Assembly (NCBI GenBank): GCA_001662655.1
Contig: KV460232.1
DNA: 64,000 bases
From: Pseudogymnoascus verrucosus
Taxonomy: Eukaryota
Reading direction: 5' to 3' (one strand)
In this document: positions 26,901 to 34,917 of the stretch, piece by piece
Numbering within the stretch: the stretch's first letter is position 1
Layout of the letters: each line of letters starts with the position of its first letter
Made by a program: the position numbers and the translations under genes
The notes under the pieces: generated by a model
What the model was told of the DNA's origin: nothing
The model's input: only the letters and a program-made list of their open reading frames with translations
Database searches by the model: none

Positions 26901-29900
26901 ATGACAGACCATCGCGTTAAGGCGCTGACATATCGCGTGGAGAATATCCCGCCAGGAACGTCGAAGGAGGAGCTTCTCGAGCGGTACTTTTACAGAGAGG
27001 ATAGGGAGGATATCAAGGTCAAGTCGCTGTGTCCCTCGTGCGACAGCGTCGATCCGGATGAGGATGACTGGACAGCGACGATTTTCTTCCGACCCCGCGA
27101 TGCGGGGAGAGGGGAATTGCGCCTGGCGAATGATGATACGTTGACGCTCTCGAGGGATTTCTTCGGTTTCACGCCTCTTTATGTGCCGCCGAAAGAGAAG
27201 GGGCCTGTTGCGGCAGAGTGAGTTGTTTTTGTTGTTTTCCGCGCCAGCCGCGTGCCTGTTGCTGTGCTGACGGTCTTCACTAGTATCATCGCCGTTACCG
27301 GCCTAGGTGGCCATGCTTATGGGTCGTGGAGCCATTCCGACGAGCGCATGTGGCTGCGCGACTATCTTCCGAAAGACGCGCCGAATGCACGGATTTTGAC
27401 TTATGGGTACCAATCGGCTTTGCAGAGCGACTCTATTAGTGTGTTGGAGGATCATACAAATAAATTTGTGCATAAACTTGTTGATATGAGAGATGCGTCT
27501 GAGGTTAGTAAATCAAACTATGCGCTACACCTTGGAAGCCATACTAATATATAATTTGCAGTGTGAAAGCAGGTATGCGATAACGAGCGCACAGCGAAAC
27601 GGATGATAAAATGCTAATTCCGAAAGACCTATAATATTTGTTGGACATAGTTTAGGATGTCTAATTATCAAGAAGGTATGTATTCAGCTTATTGGTCCCC
27701 CCTTTATTATCATACTGACTGTAGATAGGCACTTACTGGCATTGGCCCAATGGGCATGTAAGTTTAATACCCGCTTTAGCATACAGTGCTGTGATAGATC
27801 ATGCATTGACAAGTTCTAGCCCAATGTCCCGCCTACCAGTTCGCGCCATCATCTTCTTAGCTGCACCCCACAGAGGACTCAATATCGATGCACTGCAAAC
27901 ACTAGTTATGGGCCAGGCGACTGAGGGCATGATAAATGAGCTCAGAGCCAACTCGCCGACACTAAGAGAACTCACCAATAGATTCCGTGACATTGTAGAA
28001 GATAACATTGACCTCTTGACATGTTACGAGCAAAGGCCTACAAAGACAGTGGTCAAGGTATGTACTAGAGAGCTGAGCAACATTTTCCCATACTAACCCA
28101 GTTGCAGGGTGCCGACGGCATATGGAGACGAGAAGGCACGCCAGTGATAATGGTTGGGCCAGATTCGGCACGGCTTGACTACAAAAAGGAGAAGTGCGTC
28201 TCTGTTGACTGCGACCACTCGCAAATTGCCAAGCTCAAGAAAGGAGAGGGTGGCATTTACCCTACTGTCAAATCAGCTATCAAGCATGGTCTCATAAGCA
28301 CCGCTAGGATAGTAGCGGGGAAAGATGTAAGTCTTGAATATCCCCGTGGTGGCAAGGTAAGCCATCTACTATGTCTTGTTCTATAATGCGGAAGAAAAGG
28401 ACTAATCCCGAGACAGGAGTTGACACACGGCGGCGCTGGATCTATGACTGGTTATATGCATTCTGTCCCTCCTCCATACGTTCAAGACAAAATCGCCGCC
28501 AGCAATGCGGCGTATATACCGCAGCAACCACAGCAAGCGCCTCCAACCCTTGCCCCTTATCAAGACCGCCATATTGTGGTAGAACGTGCGATCACGCCGA
28601 CCTATGAAAGCGCCGCTCATTACACTCAACCAGAGGCCCAATCATCACCTCCTTCCCATGACCGTGGAACGAGCCATGCAATCGAGAGCCGTTATCTCTC
28701 CGAGGCACATGGCAAGGCAGACGATGTTGTCAATGTAGAGCCTGATATTTCAGCCTTGACGATTTCTGAGCCACCTCAGGCCCCAGTCTTCTTGGACAAA
28801 TCCGAAGTCACTGTGGAGGAGGATATGGATGATGGGTACGAAGTTGACCCTGACAACATCTCAACCACAGCAATATGCAGCCGCTGCGATGAGGGTGTAC
28901 CGGACTCGACATTTCACTACTATTGCTACATGCCGATCACTAACCAATCCGGAGAAGATGACGATAAAGACAGGGTAGAAGAGCACAAGAACACTACTGT
29001 GTGTCAGTCCTGCGCTTACCTTGACCCCAATTGCGAGATACACAACGAACTACTCGTCAAGCGAGGCGTAAAGCCCCACGAAGCCCTCGAGCCATTTCTG
29101 CCATACATCGAGACCGACATACTGAGGTCAGACAACAGCCTCATTCGCGCGGTGAAGGAAAATGATTTGGACAAGATCGGACGTCTATCAAACAACTCCA
29201 AACTTCTCAGTGGAAAGACCTATGAGGGCTGCACTCCTCTCGTCTTGGCAGTCCAGCTAGGGCTGGTTGATGCTGTCAAGCTTATGCTCGCCAATGGAGC
29301 TTCCCCGACTGAGAGAGACTCCACTGGCTTCACGCCACTTTTCATGGCAGTCCAGTACAACCGGTACAAGGTGGCTAAAGTGCTTCTCGATGCCGGTGCA
29401 GACGTTGAGGACACTGGGGGACAATCATCCGCACTGCACCTGGCGGCGTCAAATGGAAGACCAAGGATGTTACAGCTCCTCCTAAACCGACAAGCCCCCG
29501 TCGACGTTTCATTCATCGGCTTCGGCACACCCCTCCACCAAGCCGCTCAATTAGGGAGCAACGAGTGCGTGAAGATTCTCCTTGCTGCAGGTGCTGATCC
29601 AAACGCAATGGCCAAGAGCGGCGCCACGGCCCTGAAATGGGCGGCTCTTAAAGGATACCGTGACGTCGTAAAGACGCTTCTTAGGAATAAGGCAATTGCC
29701 TCTCACATTGGAACAGATGGTGAAACGCCGATATACTGTGCTGTGGATGGCGGCCATGGGGAGATATGCGGAGACTTGATCGATGCTGGAGCAGACTTCA
29801 TATCAGAAGTCGCACGTCCGGTAATGACACCTCTTGGACACGCAGCACGTCTTGGCCGCAGGAATATCGTAAAAGTATTACTAGCGCGCGGGGCTCCAGT

Positions 29901-30609
29901 CGACGGTATAAGCGATGAGAACACCCCCCTGGGCTCTGCAGCAGTAGAAGGACATCTCGACGTCTGTCGGGATCTCATTGAAGCCGGCGCGAACCTCAAT
30001 GCCACATACGGACCTTTATCAACCAGCCCCGTCGGATTCGCGGCGAAATTCGGATATGAGGAGATTGCCGAGCTGCTCTTGAGCCGTGGCGCGAAGGTCG
30101 ATATTAATGACAGTGATGGACACCCCCCTATATACGTCGCGGTCGTCACGGAGCATGTGAGGGTCTGCCAGCTTCTTCTCGCGTTTGGTGCGGATGCGGG
30201 GTTCAAGACCGAAGATACAGAAAGGACTGTGCTGGCTATTACAACTATAGACGGAAACCTCTCCATGGTCAAACTTCTGATAGAATACCACGCTGATCTC
30301 GACGATGCTGATACTTACGGATGGACTCCTATAGGCCACGCCGCATTCAAAGGCTTCGTCGACATCTGCCGCGTCCTCATCGACGCCGGCGCCAACCTCG
30401 ATCTCCTCGTGTCCGGGAAGACGGCGCTGACAGAAGCTGCGCGCGCTGGCCACAGCGAGATTGTGCAGATGCTGTTAGCGGGAGGCGCGTGGGGTATGCC
30501 GCCCCCAGCGTATAAGGGGAAATGGAAGAATCTGGAATTCAAGAGCGAGGTGACGCCTTGGAAGAGGGAGGAGATTCTGAGGATTCTGAGGGCTGCGAAG
30601 CATATGTAG
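26901..30609 (+). CDS. Alpha/beta hydrolase (SesB/DUF676-like) + ZZ-like zinc finger + about 14 ankyrin repeats; 8 exons, about 1100 aa
   Basis: Exons 26901-27217, 27284-27503, 27562-27572, 27627-27675, 27729-27757, 27820-28057, 28102-28356 and 28417-30609 join in frame at GT-AG junctions. Motifs DIIAVTGLGGHAYGSW, MWLRDYLP, RILTYGY, RPIIFVGHSLG, IIFLAAPHRG, DCDHSQIAK and TPLxxAAxxG ankyrin repeats. Confidence 0.85.
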
Positions 30610-30958
30610 TGCTGTTCGGGGGTGATGGCCAATTTGGTGAATTTAAGGCTACGGCTGACGCTGGGGGATGTTTTTAACGTTTATGACCATTTATATATAC
30701 TGCTGTTATTTAAGTTTGAGCTTATTATCATTTACGAATGACAATTAGAGAGTTTTTTTTGTTATGGTTATGAGGGAAATTTGATTCGTTATTGGTAGCA
30801 TTAGTTCTCAGATTGCATGCAAAGAATGTGCCGTCTCCACAAGAGAAACGAAAGCATGCCAGCTCAGCTAATGCCACTAAACCGCATCGTGAGTAGAGTA
30901 AATACCTCGCCCACGTTCATTGTGGTGCAAATAACTCTAATCCCCAACCTTGATTCCT

Positions 30959-32451
30959 CTATTCATCTCGTGGATCCCCTTCGACGTCGGGCTCTACGGA
31001 CCCACAGCCACCACGCTTCTCAACTATAACCCCGTTCTCAACGGTGAAGCACCCGCCACGCTTTTCAACCGCAGCCAAAGGATCTCGTGGGTCACCTTCA
31101 GCCACGTCAGTCAAGGGGTCTCGTGGATCACCCTCGGCAAGGGGGAACGGCGGCCCAACACCGCGATTTGGGTCATCACAATTGGGCTGCGCGTATACGA
31201 TCCCGTTTTCCTTCACGAAGCAACCAACGCGCTTTTCAACCGCAGCTAGGGGATCGCGTGGATCTCCTTCAGCCACGGGAGTCAGGGGGTCTCGTGGATC
31301 ACCTTCGACGACAGGTTTTACGAACCCACAGCCACCGCGCTTCTCGATTATAACCCCATTCTCGATGGTAAAGCACCCACCACGCTTTTCAACCGCAGCT
31401 AGGGGGTCTCGTGGGTCACCTTCAGCGACAGCAACTAAGGGGTCTCGTGGATCCCCTTCAGCCACTGCAGTCAGGGGGTCTCGCGGATCCCCTTCGACGT
31501 CAGGCTCCACGGATCCGCAGCCACCGCGCTTCTCAACTATAACTCCGTTCTCGACAGTGAAGCACCCACCACGTTTCTTGACATCGACGTTAACATCCGC
31601 ATCGACACCCGCGTCAATGTCGCCGTTATTATCCACAGTGCCACAGGCACTGCTAACTATAGCTCCGTTTTCAACAGTGTAGCAAGCGCGCTTTCCGGGG
31701 TGAGTAATCGACCTCAGCCTCTCCATCATTGCGGCATCAGGGGTGACCGGTCCACCCGGGCCGTCATCGATGAGGCGAGCATACTCCTTCATAAACTCAT
31801 CCCGCTCATGTAAAACGTGCGATTCTGGCTTTAATTGCTCATTCTTTTCCAGGGCATCGGCTTCAATAGTAGAACGTCTTGCGAGGTAGCTGGTGAAAGG
31901 GGTGGATTCGGGGATATTGGTTGGTGCTTCGATATTTGGATTGGTGGGGTATTTGTCAATTACGCCGCCGTCTCTTTGAGGGGCTGGGTTGGCGCTGGCT
32001 TCACGGCCTTCATATTGGTGGCGTTTATGGGCACAAGGGTCTGGTTTGGTACCGAGTTGGACAGTGAGGCAACCAGTATCCATAACGCACGTCTATTTGA
32101 ATATTAGACCATGCTTGTGAGATCAAGAGGGAAGATAGCATTGAAGTATAAATGGTCGGGTTAACGTACAGGATCAGTACGTCCATTAAATCCTTGGCCT
32201 GGGCAGGAACAAATTGAACAGTGAGACCAGTCTGGGTCAAAAATATTGATGCCGAAGCATGAACCTGCTTTGAAGCATTGGCCAGAAAGACCACATTTGC
32301 CGAGAACGCAAGACGATTTAGAGGAAAGAGAGTTGGGTGCGTCTGGGATCAAAATTGGGCTGGCTAGGACGGATGCAAGGAAGGAGAATAGAGCGAGGGA
32401 ATTTGTGAGCAGGGCTTCGCTCGGGGTGCTGTCCATGGGTTTGAACTTCAT
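30959..32451 (-). CDS. Probably secreted Kex2-processed repeat protein (KEP / peptide precursor), about 471 aa, 2 exons
   Basis: Exon 1 (32451-32170) has a hydrophobic leader LALFSFLASVLA-SP and a Cys-rich region. Intron 32169-32093 (gtacgt...ctaat...aatag) is phase 0. Exon 2 (32092-30959) carries many KR sites delimiting repeated peptides. Confidence 0.85.
30962..31694 (-). repeat. Coding repeat array: KR-GGCFTVENGVIVE-KR-GGC...(AEGDPRDPL)n
   Basis: Eight copies of EGDPRD and five copies of C[FY]xxENG, with near-identical DNA units. Confidence 0.95.
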
Positions 32452-34033: not shown

Positions 34034-34917
34034 ATGAAACACAAGAATACCAACCCCAAGAAGAGCACCGCCAAAAGCGCGCCATCCGAACCCCCACCAA
34101 ACTGGCCTGCATTCAAACCCCTCCTCCCCGCCTCCGACCTCTACCTAGAACCCATTGTTGACTCGCAAATCATTGTCACCCGCAACTTCTGGACCTCGAC
34201 GCTGTGTAAAGATTACGTCTCCTTCCTCAGATCCCTGCCCCTGGTCACAACACCAGGGAAGCCGAAAAAGGGCGACGCTGTGCGCGTCAACGATCGCTTC
34301 CAGATCACAGACCCGGCGTTCGCTAACAGATTATGGCTGGAGACCGGTCTACGAGAGCTGGTGAATGGGAGGACAGACGAGGAGGAGGGTGAGTCGATGA
34401 GTAAAGAAGAGAGGACAAGACTGTGGTATGTTCCACACGTGACGTGACACTGGACAGAGACATGCAAATGCGCTCCTACTAACGAACACAGGGGCGGAGA
34501 AGTCGTAGGCCTGAATCCCTCAATCCGGATATACCGTTACACGCCAGGTCAATTTTTCGACCAGCATTGTACGCCCTCCCTCTCCTCCCCTGTTATCCCT
34601 TCCTAACCCTCCCCCTAGACGACGAATCGAACATCATCAACCTCCCCACCACCCCTACCACCCCCGCAAAAACAACCTGGACTCTCCTCCTCTACCTTAC
34701 TTCCCCCGCCACAGGCTGTGAAGGCGGACAAACGGTCTTTTACCCGGACGACCTGCCGTTCAAGAACTCGCCGATCCAGAAGGAGGTTGTGGTAGAGCTG
34801 GAGACGGGCATGTTGCTGCTGCATAAGCACGGGAATGAGTGCATGCTGCATGAGGGGCGGGAGGTGACGGCGGGTGAGAAATGGGTCATTCGGACGGATC
34901 TGTGCGTTAGAAGGTAG
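34034..34917 (+). CDS. 2OG-Fe(II) oxygenase (prolyl-4-hydroxylase-like fold), 3 exons
   Basis: VRVNDRFQ, GLNPSIRIYRYTPGQFFDQH(Y)D, WTLLLYL, GGQTVFY and HEGREVTAGEKWVIRTDL give the HxD...H...K/R signature. Confidence 0.85.

What the first reader, a model, noticed from the sequence alone, without database searches (positions are those of the whole stretch)
30959..32451. Kex2-processed repeat precursor (KEP/RiPP-like) encoding a library of unfamiliar peptides
Seen: a hydrophobic leader and nine KR sites plus one RR. Cleavage would release GGCFTVENGVIVE (twice), GGCFTIENGVIIE, GGCGSVEPDVEGDPRDPLTAVAEGDPRDPLVAVAEGDPRDPLAAVE, GGCGFVKPVVEGDPRDPLTPVAEGDPRDPLAAVE, VGCFVKENGIVYAQPNCDDP... and ACYTVENGAIVSSACG.... 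Known: signal peptide plus KR-delimited repeats is the precursor architecture of alpha-pheromones, candidalysin (Ece1) and dikaritins such as ustiloxin and phomopsin. The cores resemble none of those as I know them, and no DUF3328/UstYa or tyrosinase gene is recognisable in the window. Inference: an uncharacterised secreted peptide system (signal, toxin or surface peptide). This is the best novelty candidate in the window.
Basis: partly seen in the sequence, partly recalled or inferred. Interest (0 to 1): 0.8.

Follow-up and report, generated by a model that had tools for sequence, protein, structure and literature searches.

The report
Catalogued fungal Kex2 repeat-peptide precursor
This is a real, spliced and transcribed gene of the soil fungus Pseudogymnoascus verrucosus for a secreted protein built to be cut into small cysteine-containing peptides. 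The exact protein is already listed in a published catalogue of such precursors, and what its peptides do is untested.

Summary
A two-exon gene on the minus strand (32451..30959, one 77-nt intron) encodes a 471-aa protein with a hydrophobic leader, nine KR sites and one RR. Shuffled sequences give 1.26 KR on average. It is identical to hypothetical protein VE01_06038 (OBT95865.1) of Pseudogymnoascus verrucosus.

That accession is already listed by Umemura 2020 (PMC7329392, Table S2) as a Kex2-processed repeat protein (KEP) of type 133. The type has 8 members, all Pseudogymnoascus, and this entry has no DUF3328 gene within 15 genes. The KEP reading is therefore supported but not new. The peptides themselves remain uncharacterised.

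New here:
- One contig in a public run skips exactly the predicted intron.
- An exhaustive profile search of 1.84 billion proteins found 11 hits. Every named relative in the searches that carry names is Pseudogymnoascus.
- The 13-residue core is kept by purifying selection. Two copies share 33 identical residues but differ at 12 synonymous codons.
- Cysteines come in pairs 12-14 residues apart around an Asn-Gly turn, often with a KR between them.
- A 10-cysteine N-terminal domain is invariant.

No tailoring enzyme is linked. The adjacent 2OG oxygenase is widespread in fungi whose names do not appear among the hits to this family. Cleavage, secretion and function are inferred, not shown. Interest is modest.

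The parts
30959..32451 (-). Whole gene: 471 codons plus stop, two exons (VE01_06038 / OBT95865.1)
   Evidence: Searches give the gene model. In one search the spliced translation equals P0002. Searches give 100% identity to the NCBI protein.
32170..32451 (-). Exon 1, codons 1-94
32093..32169 (-). Intron, 77 nt, GT..AG on the minus strand
   Evidence: In one search, one 237-nt contig of run X1 joins 32092 to 32170 and skips these 77 nt (ends CT..AC on the plus strand).
30959..32092 (-). Exon 2, codons 95-471 plus stop codon
32359..32451 (-). Predicted signal peptide, residues 1 to about 30/31
   Evidence: hydrophobic maximum at residues 18-36, and the -3/-1 rule is met after residues 30 and 31; the protein passed a pipeline that required SignalP 4.1.
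32033..32310 (-). N-terminal cysteine-rich domain, residues 48-114 (interrupted by the intron), with ten cysteines invariant in 12 homologues
   Evidence: One search lists C48, C53, C59, C65, C78, C81, C83, C96, C102 and C114 as invariant. No Pfam or PDB match.
31688..32032 (-). Pro-region, residues 115-229. It has a variable linker, then a conserved block of about 40 residues ending in the first conserved KR (228-229).
   Evidence: invariant R191, E197 ... P226..
31571..31687 (-). First unit, residues 230-268. It is a hairpin with two cysteines 12 residues apart and no inner KR, followed by an acidic tail and KKR.
   Evidence: DSSP strands 233-235 and 238-240, at low confidence.
31526..31570 (-). 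Core copy 1, residues 269-283 (13-mer plus KR)
31382..31525 (-). Acidic spacer 1, residues 284-331. It starts with the partner cysteine and contains three copies of a 12-residue proline/aspartate repeat.
   Evidence: tandem repeat 31395-31495, period 36, 2.8 copies.
31337..31381 (-). Core copy 2, residues 332-346 (13-mer variant plus KR)
31229..31336 (-). Acidic spacer 2, residues 347-382
31058..31228 (-). Conserved two-cysteine unit without an inner KR (residues 383-439, cysteines 13 residues apart) plus an acidic spacer
   Evidence: strands 385-389 and 392-396, at low confidence.
31013..31057 (-). Core copy 3, residues 440-454. The peptide is identical to copy 1.
   Evidence: a 33-residue run identical to copy 1, with 12 synonymous codon differences.
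30962..31012 (-). C-terminal acidic tail, residues 455-471, starting with the partner cysteine

Best explanation
The gene encodes a secreted polyprotein precursor of the Kex2-processed repeat protein (KEP) class, confined to the genus Pseudogymnoascus as far as names are available.

Inferred mechanism:
1. The leader is removed on entry to the ER.
2. The ten-cysteine N-terminal domain and the cysteine pairs of the repeat region are oxidised there.
3. In the Golgi, Kex2 cuts after the conserved KR sites (residues 229, 268, 283, 331, 346, 382, 439, 454).
4. A Kex1-type carboxypeptidase trims the basic residues.

The predicted products are:
- an N-terminal cysteine-rich protein of about 200 residues;
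- three copies of a conserved, mildly acidic 13-residue peptide with one cysteine and a strand / Asn-Gly turn / strand shape;
- two longer two-cysteine peptides;
- fast-evolving acidic spacer peptides, each beginning with a cysteine.

Each core cysteine has a partner 12-14 residues downstream, usually on the far side of a KR. The released species may therefore be disulfide-linked pairs of a core and a spacer rather than free linear peptides.

The peptides most likely act outside the cell, as a signal or in interactions with other organisms, and not as the mating pheromone. They probably carry no dikaritin-type modification.

Shown: gene structure, transcription and splicing, the repeat and KR architecture, conservation and selection. 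Inferred: secretion, cleavage, disulfides and function.
For: Gene and identity:
- The spliced ORF equals OBT95865.1.
- A contig in run X1 skips exactly the predicted intron.

KR architecture:
- Nine KR are observed against 1.26 expected, and 0 of 20000 shuffles reach that number.
- Across 62 hairpin units in 15 full-length homologues, 56 are preceded by a dibasic pair and 48 are followed by one. These proteins include two near-duplicates and one doubtful gene model.
- The residue four before the inner cut is V or I in 51 of 54 units. It is L or V in 31 of 54 for the upstream site. This fits the aliphatic P4 preference of Kex2, which I recall rather than tested.

Conservation and selection:
- The most common residue has a frequency of 0.54-1.0 from the upstream KR to one residue past the partner cysteine. 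Frequencies are 0.2-0.6 in the spacer.
- Within this gene, unit copies differ at 7, 8 and 4 synonymous codons against 2, 0 and 2 nonsynonymous codons out of 21. Two copies share 33 identical residues with 12 synonymous differences.

Cysteines:
- 60 of 62 units have a second cysteine 12-14 residues on.
- 13 of 15 proteins have an even cysteine count after the pro-region.

Other support:
- The published survey lists the protein as KEP type 133 after a SignalP-4.1 filter.
- No confident fold was predicted for any part: mean pLDDT 29.7, all 471 residues below 50.
Against: - Nothing here shows secretion, cleavage or any peptide.
- Expression rests on one low-depth contig (depth 4) in one run whose RNA nature is only a guess by the index.
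- The inner KR is absent from 14 of 62 units, and all 14 keep the partner cysteine. The cysteine pair is thus better kept than the cut site, which would also fit a structural, uncut repeat.
- The structure model is uninformative.
- Units and proteins counted are related, so the counts are not independent events.
- In Coprinopsis, knocking out KEP genes gave no detectable phenotype (abstract of PMC9769878). A clear function may be hard to find.
Confidence: 0.65

Rival explanations
1. It is a secreted or wall-associated repeat protein that stays largely uncut. Its functional units would be the disulfide-closed hairpins strung on acidic linkers, and the KR pairs would be tolerated or only partly used.
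For: - The cysteine pair is kept in 60 of 62 units. The inner KR is missing in 14 of 62, including two unit types conserved across species.
- The cysteine count after the pro-region is even in 13 of 15 proteins.
- DSSP of the low-confidence model draws a two-strand hairpin at all five units.
Against: - Dibasic pairs flank the units far more often than chance, with aliphatic residues four before the cut.
- The linkers change completely between species while the KR and the cores stay. This is the usual pattern of a precursor.
- There is no hydrophobic C-terminal anchor signal: the top hydrophobic windows are all in the leader.
- No repeat fold is predicted with any confidence.
Confidence: 0.17
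2. It is a precursor of a modified peptide natural product (a RiPP of the dikaritin or another class). The tailoring enzymes would be encoded elsewhere or be the neighbouring 2OG-Fe(II) oxygenase.
For: - The architecture is that of ustiloxin-type precursors (abstract of PMC7329392).
- One of the 8 type-133 entries (KFY00367.1) is flagged with a DUF3328 gene within 15 genes.
- A P4H-like 2OG oxygenase gene lies 1.6 kb away, divergently transcribed.
Against: - 7 of 8 type-133 entries, including this one, have no DUF3328 gene within 15 genes.
- No DUF3328 or tyrosinase hit appeared among the 57 ORFs of the window that I scanned. These were 28 of the 126 ORFs of 120 aa or more across the whole window and 29 of the 101 ORFs of 75 aa or more in 22-42 kb.
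- The aromatic position is Tyr in 35 and Phe in 18 of 54 units, and Phe in all three 13-mers of this gene. A tyrosine ether cross-link is therefore not conserved.
- The oxygenase has 655 homologues. The named ones are at 57-70% identity in genera that do not appear among the named hits to this KEP family, such as Sclerotinia, Diplodia and Hymenoscyphus.
Confidence: 0.1
3. It is the alpha-type mating pheromone precursor of the fungus.
For: Signal peptide plus KR-delimited repeats is the alpha-factor architecture. Cysteine-containing alpha pheromones occur in Leotiomycetes (passages of PMC6339444).
Against: - P. verrucosus has a separate KEP of type 2 (OBT98717.1). Type 2 is the type in which 121 of 138 members are annotated as fungal pheromones.
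- The type-133 rows carry no pheromone flag.
- The units begin with two small residues, not the X-Ala/X-Pro dipeptides trimmed by Ste13.
- The large cysteine-rich N-terminal domain has no counterpart in pheromone precursors. That last point is recalled, not tested.
Confidence: 0.03

Closest known systems
KEP type 133 of Umemura 2020 (PMC7329392, Additional file 3, Table S2)
   Same: It is this family. OBT95865.1 is one of its 8 listed members, all from Pseudogymnoascus.
   Different: The catalogue gives only accession, type number and flags. I found no description of the peptides, the cysteine pairs, the N-terminal domain, expression or function in the passages and tables I read. At least two relatives found here (KFZ07029.1, OBT42756.1) are not in that table.
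Yeast alpha-factor precursor and filamentous-ascomycete alpha-pheromone precursors (KEP types G-4 and G-2 of Umemura 2020)
   Same: A signal peptide, a pro-region and tandem peptide copies each ending in KR.
   Different: There is no Ste13 dipeptide signature and no sequence similarity: Pfam MF_alpha was not hit. The fungus has its own type-2 gene. Here each core alternates with a long acidic spacer that carries a partner cysteine.
Ustiloxin-type (dikaritin) precursors such as UstA (KEP type G-10)
   Same: Signal peptide and KR-flanked repeated cores (abstract of PMC7329392).
   Different: No DUF3328/UstYa gene lies within 15 genes or among the window ORFs I scanned. The aromatic residue is not a conserved Tyr. 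The cores are 13 residues long and contain cysteine.
Two-chain products of dibasic processing inside a disulfide loop: yeast K1/K28 killer toxins and proinsulin (recalled, not searched here)
   Same: If the paired cysteines are bonded before Kex2 acts, cutting the KR between them would leave two chains held by a disulfide.
   Different: There is no sequence relationship. Pairing and cleavage are both untested here. In this protein the arrangement would be repeated several times in one precursor.
Ustilago maydis Rep1 and Hum3, and Candida albicans Ece1 (recalled, not searched here)
   Same: Kex2-cut polyproteins that release several related peptides. Hum3 couples a folded cysteine-rich domain to KR-delimited repeats.
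   Different: The N-terminal domain here has ten cysteines with no adjacent Cys-Cys pairs, so it lacks the hydrophobin pattern. The peptides are acidic and short.

Membership tests
Kex2-processed repeat proteins (KEPs; criteria of Umemura 2020, section 'Detection of KEPs') | N-terminal ER signal peptide | tested here: met
   The hydrophobic maximum of the whole protein lies at residues 18-36, and the -3/-1 rule is met after residues 30 and 31. SignalP was not run here. The protein is listed by a pipeline that kept only SignalP-4.1 positives.
Kex2-processed repeat proteins (KEPs; criteria of Umemura 2020, section 'Detection of KEPs') | At least 3 tandem repeats of 8 aa or more between dibasic sites, with no separated piece longer than 100 aa | tested here: met
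   The fragments after the pro-region are 39, 15, 48, 15, 36, 57, 15 and 17 residues, with three near-identical 15-residue pieces. The 111-residue KR-to-KR piece is split by the RR at 166.
Kex2-processed repeat proteins (KEPs; criteria of Umemura 2020, section 'Detection of KEPs') | Actual cleavage by Kex2 and release of peptides | not testable with these tools
   This needs peptidomics or a kex2 mutant.
Dikaritin / ustiloxin-type RiPP precursors | DUF3328 (UstYa) gene in the neighbourhood | tested here: not met
   The 'DUF3328 in vicinity' cell (within 15 genes) is blank for OBT95865.1. There was no PF11807 hit among the 57 ORFs scanned. The scan was partial, and small exons could be missed.
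Dikaritin / ustiloxin-type RiPP precursors | Conserved Tyr in the core for the ether cross-link (feature recalled) | tested here: not met
   The aromatic position is Tyr in 35, Phe in 18 and Ile in 1 of 54 units. It is Phe in all three 13-mers of this gene.
Alpha-type mating pheromone precursors | Ste13 dipeptide (X-Ala / X-Pro) spacers after the KR (passages of PMC6339444) | tested here: not met
   In 40 of 62 units the KR is followed directly by two glycines and the cysteine. No unit shows an X-Ala-X-Ala or X-Pro series.
Alpha-type mating pheromone precursors | Homology to the pheromone KEP type (type 2) | tested here: not met
   The protein is classed as type 133, not type 2. A separate type-2 protein exists in the same genome.
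Hydrophobins (for the N-terminal domain) | Eight cysteines with two adjacent Cys-Cys pairs (pattern recalled) | tested here: not met
   There are ten invariant cysteines at 48, 53, 59, 65, 78, 81, 83, 96, 102 and 114, none adjacent. There is no Pfam hit.

The most novel reading that the evidence does not exclude
Each repeat may be a disulfide-clasped beta-hairpin with a Kex2 site inside the loop. One precursor would then yield several two-chain, disulfide-linked peptides, each a conserved 13-mer tied to a fast-evolving acidic chain, plus a separate ten-cysteine protein. That product type has not been described for KEPs in the papers I read. The family is genus-specific. It was not found under a P. 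destructans name in the catalogue or in my protein searches, so it might mark a difference between the soil species and the bat pathogen.
Probability: 0.2. Interest if true: 0.6.

Novelty: already known. Interest (0 to 1): 0.3.

Why it matters
KEPs are a large and mostly unexplored reservoir of fungal secreted peptides. The catalogue holds 7878 of them, and the abstract of Vogt et al. [quoted passage not shown]

This member is ordinary as a class member, but it is a well-defined test case:
- a strongly conserved 13-residue core under demonstrable purifying selection;
- paired cysteines that predict a specific mass-spectrometric signature, two chains that separate on reduction;
- a host genus for which transformation and CRISPR tools are reported (titles in the listing).

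If the family really is absent from P. destructans, that would add one item to the list of secreted functions that differ between it and its saprotrophic relatives. This was checked only at the level of annotated proteins.

Tried and rejected
- **RNA evidence:** no RNA holder is listed for the stretch. Of the four runs laid, only X1 shows the spliced joint. X2 covers 160 nt inside exon 1. X19 and X20 carry the unspliced, DNA-like form.
- **Family libraries:** Pfam gave nothing above cut-off for either exon or for the whole protein. The best hit was CtsR at 18.7 bits against a cut-off of 23.1, which I take as chance on the repeat. A profile search of PDB sequences gave 0 hits at E up to 1.
- **ESM Atlas:** no usable hit for residues 32-230 or 229-471.
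- **Structure:** AlphaFold2 with the 12-sequence alignment gave mean pLDDT 29.7 and pTM 0.14. I therefore ran no fold search and used no second structure job. The hairpins in its DSSP line are only a weak hint.
- **Distant relatives:** the exhaustive profile search gave 11 hits. Two (P0029, P0030; E about 4e-5) are unrelated low-complexity repeats, rejected on reading them. P0028 is a 94-residue piece like exon 1 from an unnamed source. The 'shorter' search gave only P0027.
- **Context in relatives:** the window's genome is not held. The metagenome scan returned one 1035-nt locus with no flanks. Synteny and DUF3328 linkage in other species could therefore not be examined.
- **Neighbouring 2OG oxygenase as a tailoring enzyme:** considered and judged unlikely because it is conserved far beyond the genus. 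It is not excluded.
- **Earlier notes of this scan:** none for this place or sequence. The word search gave only analogies in other genomes.
- **Literature:** the accession, the locus tag and two core strings occur in no main text of the library. A five-term search on Kex2, repeats and disulfides gave one unrelated paper.
- **Not computed:** masses and isoelectric points of the predicted peptides.
Full report
**What is there.** The stretch 30959-32451 holds one gene on the minus strand. Reading the sequence and translating both parts gives:
- exon 1 at 32451..32170 (94 codons);
- a 77-nt intron at 32169..32093 with GT..AG ends;
- exon 2 at 32092..30959, including the stop.

A script that joined the two exons from the window file gave a 471-residue translation identical to database protein P0002. 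P0002 is the 100% hit of the homology search. It carries the accessions OBT95865.1 / XP_018129598.1, 'hypothetical protein VE01_06038 [Pseudogymnoascus verrucosus]'. The window is therefore from a leotiomycete soil fungus.

The intron is supported by data. Four public runs were laid on the locus. In one of them (X1, indexed as 'RNA?', a guess) a 237-nt contig of depth 4 joins 32092 directly to 32170 and skips exactly the 77 nt. Its flanks are 91 and 146 nt, with one mismatch. X19 and X20 hold the unspliced, DNA-like form, and X2 covers only 160 nt of exon 1. No run on record as RNA holds the stretch. Expression therefore rests on this one spliced contig.

**The observation.**
- One search finds nine KR and one RR. 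Shuffling the protein's own residues gives 1.26 +/- 1.07 KR, and 0 of 20000 shuffles reach nine.
- Cutting after every KR yields pieces of 118, 111, 39, 15, 48, 15, 36, 57, 15 and 17 residues.
- The most hydrophobic 11-residue windows of the whole protein all start at residues 18-26, and small residues at -3/-1 allow cleavage after residue 30 or 31.
- I could not run SignalP. The published survey that lists this protein kept only SignalP-4.1 positives.
- The KR at 117-118 and the RR at 166-167 are not conserved in relatives. I do not count them as processing sites.

**Already catalogued.** Umemura 2020 (PMC7329392) surveyed 1461 fungal assemblies for Kex2-processed repeat proteins. I read the abstract, passages, the section 'Detection of KEPs', and rows of Tables S1 and S2 through searches of the supplements.
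- Table S1 gives P. verrucosus five KEPs.
- Table S2 lists OBT95865.1 as KEP type 133, with the columns for DUF3328 in the vicinity, yeast alpha-factor and fungal pheromone left blank.
- Type 133 has 8 rows, all Pseudogymnoascus. One of them (KFY00367.1) is flagged for a DUF3328 gene within 15 genes.
- The seven P. destructans rows are types 0, 0, 2, 0, 140, 2 and 140, so none is type 133.
- The genus name does not occur in the main text of Le Marquer et al. 2019 (PMC6339444; passages only).
- The accession, the locus tag and two core strings occur in no main text of the paper library.

The gene is thus a published computational KEP prediction. I found no description of its peptides and no experiment on them.

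**Distribution.**
- The word-indexed search gave 21 proteins. Thirteen are named Pseudogymnoascus and eight are unnamed environmental or run-assembly proteins.
- An exhaustive HMMER search with a 12-sequence profile against 1.84 billion cluster representatives gave 11 hits at E up to 0.001, nine of them at 1e-10 or better. That library carries no names.
- On reading the hits, two are unrelated low-complexity repeats. One (P0028, 94 residues) is a more divergent copy of the exon-1 domain from an unnamed source.
- The search for shorter proteins added nothing named.
- Pfam, PDB sequences and the ESM Atlas gave nothing.

On these searches the family has named members only in Pseudogymnoascus and no detectable relatives beyond it.

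**Anatomy across the family.** Alignment A1 and the sequences show four parts.
1. *The leader.*
2. *A domain of about 67 residues with ten invariant cysteines* (48, 53, 59, 65, 78, 81, 83, 96, 102, 114). None are adjacent, so it does not have the hydrophobin pattern.
3. *A variable linker followed by a strongly conserved block of about 40 residues.* The block ends at the first conserved KR (228-229).
4. *The repeat region.* Its unit is:
   - a dibasic pair;
   - two small residues, then a cysteine;
   - four residues, an Asn-Gly pair, and four more residues;
   - Glu-Lys-Arg;
   - two glycines, then a second cysteine;
   - an acidic spacer of variable length and sequence that ends in the next dibasic pair.

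I counted 62 such units in 15 full-length proteins. That set includes two near-duplicates, P0023 and P0026, and one doubtful gene model, P0005.
- 56 units are preceded by a dibasic pair and 48 are followed by one.
- 60 have the next cysteine 12-14 residues downstream.
- The 14 units without the inner dibasic pair all keep that cysteine.
- The cysteine count after the pro-region is even in 13 of 15 proteins.

In 54 units from 14 proteins (P0005 left out), the frequency of the commonest residue is 0.54-1.0 from the upstream KR to one residue past the second cysteine. It falls to 0.2-0.6 in the spacer. The residue four before the inner cut is V or I in 51 of 54 units.

Unit number ranges from 2 to 7 per protein. 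The spacer differs in kind between species. In P. verrucosus and its closest relatives it is a 12-residue proline/aspartate repeat with a 36-nt tandem period. In the others it is made of alternating aspartate and aliphatic residues.

**Selection.** Within this gene, the three canonical units (starting at residues 267, 330 and 438) differ from one another at 7, 8 and 4 synonymous codons. They differ at 2, 0 and 2 nonsynonymous codons, out of 21. The first and last units share a run of 33 identical residues encoded with 12 synonymous differences. The copies are old, and the peptide sequence is maintained by purifying selection rather than by recent duplication.

**Structure.** AlphaFold2 with alignment A1 gave no usable model: mean pLDDT 29.7, pTM 0.14, and every residue below 50. 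Its secondary-structure line draws a two-strand hairpin across the Asn-Gly pair at all five units (233-240, 272-281, 335-344, 385-396, 443-452). This agrees with the known tendency of Asn-Gly to form tight turns (recalled), but at this confidence it is only a hint. I ran no fold search on it.

**Surroundings.** Pfam scans covered 28 of the 126 ORFs of 120 aa or more across the window. They also covered 29 of the 101 ORFs of 75 aa or more between 22 and 42 kb. They show housekeeping-type neighbours: a fungal transcription factor, Rsm22, a lipoyl ligase, an otubain, a PCI protein, CWC25, Sir2, an FHA protein, an ankyrin protein, a G-patch protein, MoaE, a WD40 protein, a GST, glyoxalase-fold proteins, an AAA ATPase and a methyltransferase. 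There was no DUF3328 or tyrosinase hit.

The nearest upstream neighbour is divergently transcribed, about 1.6 kb away. It is a three-exon gene at about 34035-34917 (+) for a P4H-like 2OG-Fe(II) oxygenase. Its last exon scores 24.8 bits (E 4.4e-5) against PF13640, below the cut-off of 27. Full-length relatives carry PF13640 in the precomputed column. That family has 655 hits. The named ones are at 57-70% identity in Sclerotinia, Hymenoscyphus, Diplodia and other genera that do not appear among the named hits to the KEP family. I therefore read the adjacency as coincidental, without being able to exclude a role.

Synteny in other species could not be examined. The window's genome is not held, and the metagenome scan returned one 1035-nt locus.

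**Most likely mechanism.** This is a secretory polyprotein. The steps below are inferred from the established roles of signal peptidase, ER oxidation, Kex2 and Kex1 (recalled).
1. The signal peptide is removed.
2. The cysteines are oxidised in the ER.
3. Kex2 cuts after the conserved KR pairs in the Golgi.
4. A carboxypeptidase trims the basic residues.

The predicted products are an N-terminal cysteine-rich protein, three 13-residue core peptides (two of them identical), two longer two-cysteine peptides, and acidic spacer peptides.

Each core cysteine has a conserved partner just beyond the inner KR. Units that lack that KR still keep both cysteines. A disulfide across the cut site is therefore plausible. 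The released molecules would then be two chains held together, as in yeast killer toxins or insulin. That analogy is recalled, and there is no homology.

I put the KEP reading with cleavage at 0.65 and the specific two-chain version at about 0.2.

**Rivals.**
- *A largely uncut structural repeat protein (0.17).* It is favoured by the better conservation of the cysteine pair than of the inner KR.
- *A modified RiPP with unlinked enzymes (0.10).* It is disfavoured by the missing DUF3328 linkage and the Tyr/Phe variability (35 Tyr against 18 Phe).
- *The alpha pheromone (0.03).* It is disfavoured because the genome has its own type-2 KEP. Type 2 is the type annotated as fungal pheromone in 121 of 138 cases. 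The Ste13 signature is also absent.

**Verdict.** The KEP interpretation is supported, but it is already in print as a catalogue entry. The peptides are indeed unlike characterised ones, yet lineage-specific KEP types are the norm: 838 types, most in one genus. The features added here give concrete predictions for mass spectrometry. They are the spliced transcript, restriction to one genus, purifying selection on the core, the paired cysteines around an Asn-Gly turn, and the invariant ten-cysteine domain. They do not make the finding categorically new. Interest: 0.3.

Noticed in passing
window 34035-34917 (+): A three-exon gene for a P4H-like 2OG-Fe(II) oxygenase (PF13640) is transcribed divergently from the KEP gene. 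An HxD-type iron motif spans the second intron. The family has 655 homologues across Leotiomycetes and Dothideomycetes, all named 'hypothetical' or 'prolyl 4-hydroxylase alpha subunit'-like.
   Followed up: partly
window 28444-30609 (+): A 721-aa ankyrin-repeat protein gene (Ank_2, E 3e-80) is convergent with the KEP gene. Their 3' ends lie about 350 nt apart.
   Followed up: no
window 30954-31682 (+): A 242-codon open frame lies antisense to the repeat region. It is probably a by-product of the repetitive, GC-rich codons and not a gene.
   Followed up: no
P0005 (VE04_06543, Pseudogymnoascus sp. 24MN13), against P0002: This 428-aa protein is nearly identical to the window's protein but lacks pieces inside two spacers, loses one partner cysteine and has an odd cysteine count. 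That looks like repeat collapse in the assembly or a wrong gene model rather than biology.
   Followed up: no
P0021 (V492_03402, Pseudogymnoascus sp. VKM F-4246): In this homologue the pro-region itself is expanded into about three copies of a roughly 45-residue segment. It also lacks the terminal two-cysteine unit, so a second part of the precursor can evolve by tandem duplication.
   Followed up: no
P0028 (94 aa, unnamed run assembly) and locus L001:589-1016: These are divergent copies (about 50% identity) of the exon-1 cysteine-rich domain alone, ending at the same intron position. They suggest relatives outside the sampled named species. Whether those relatives carry the repeats is unknown.
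   Followed up: partly
Umemura 2020 Table S2, rows for P. destructans: Neither of the two P. destructans assemblies has a type-133 entry, and no protein named P. destructans appeared. This points to possible loss or non-annotation in the bat pathogen. It was not checked at the DNA level.
   Followed up: partly
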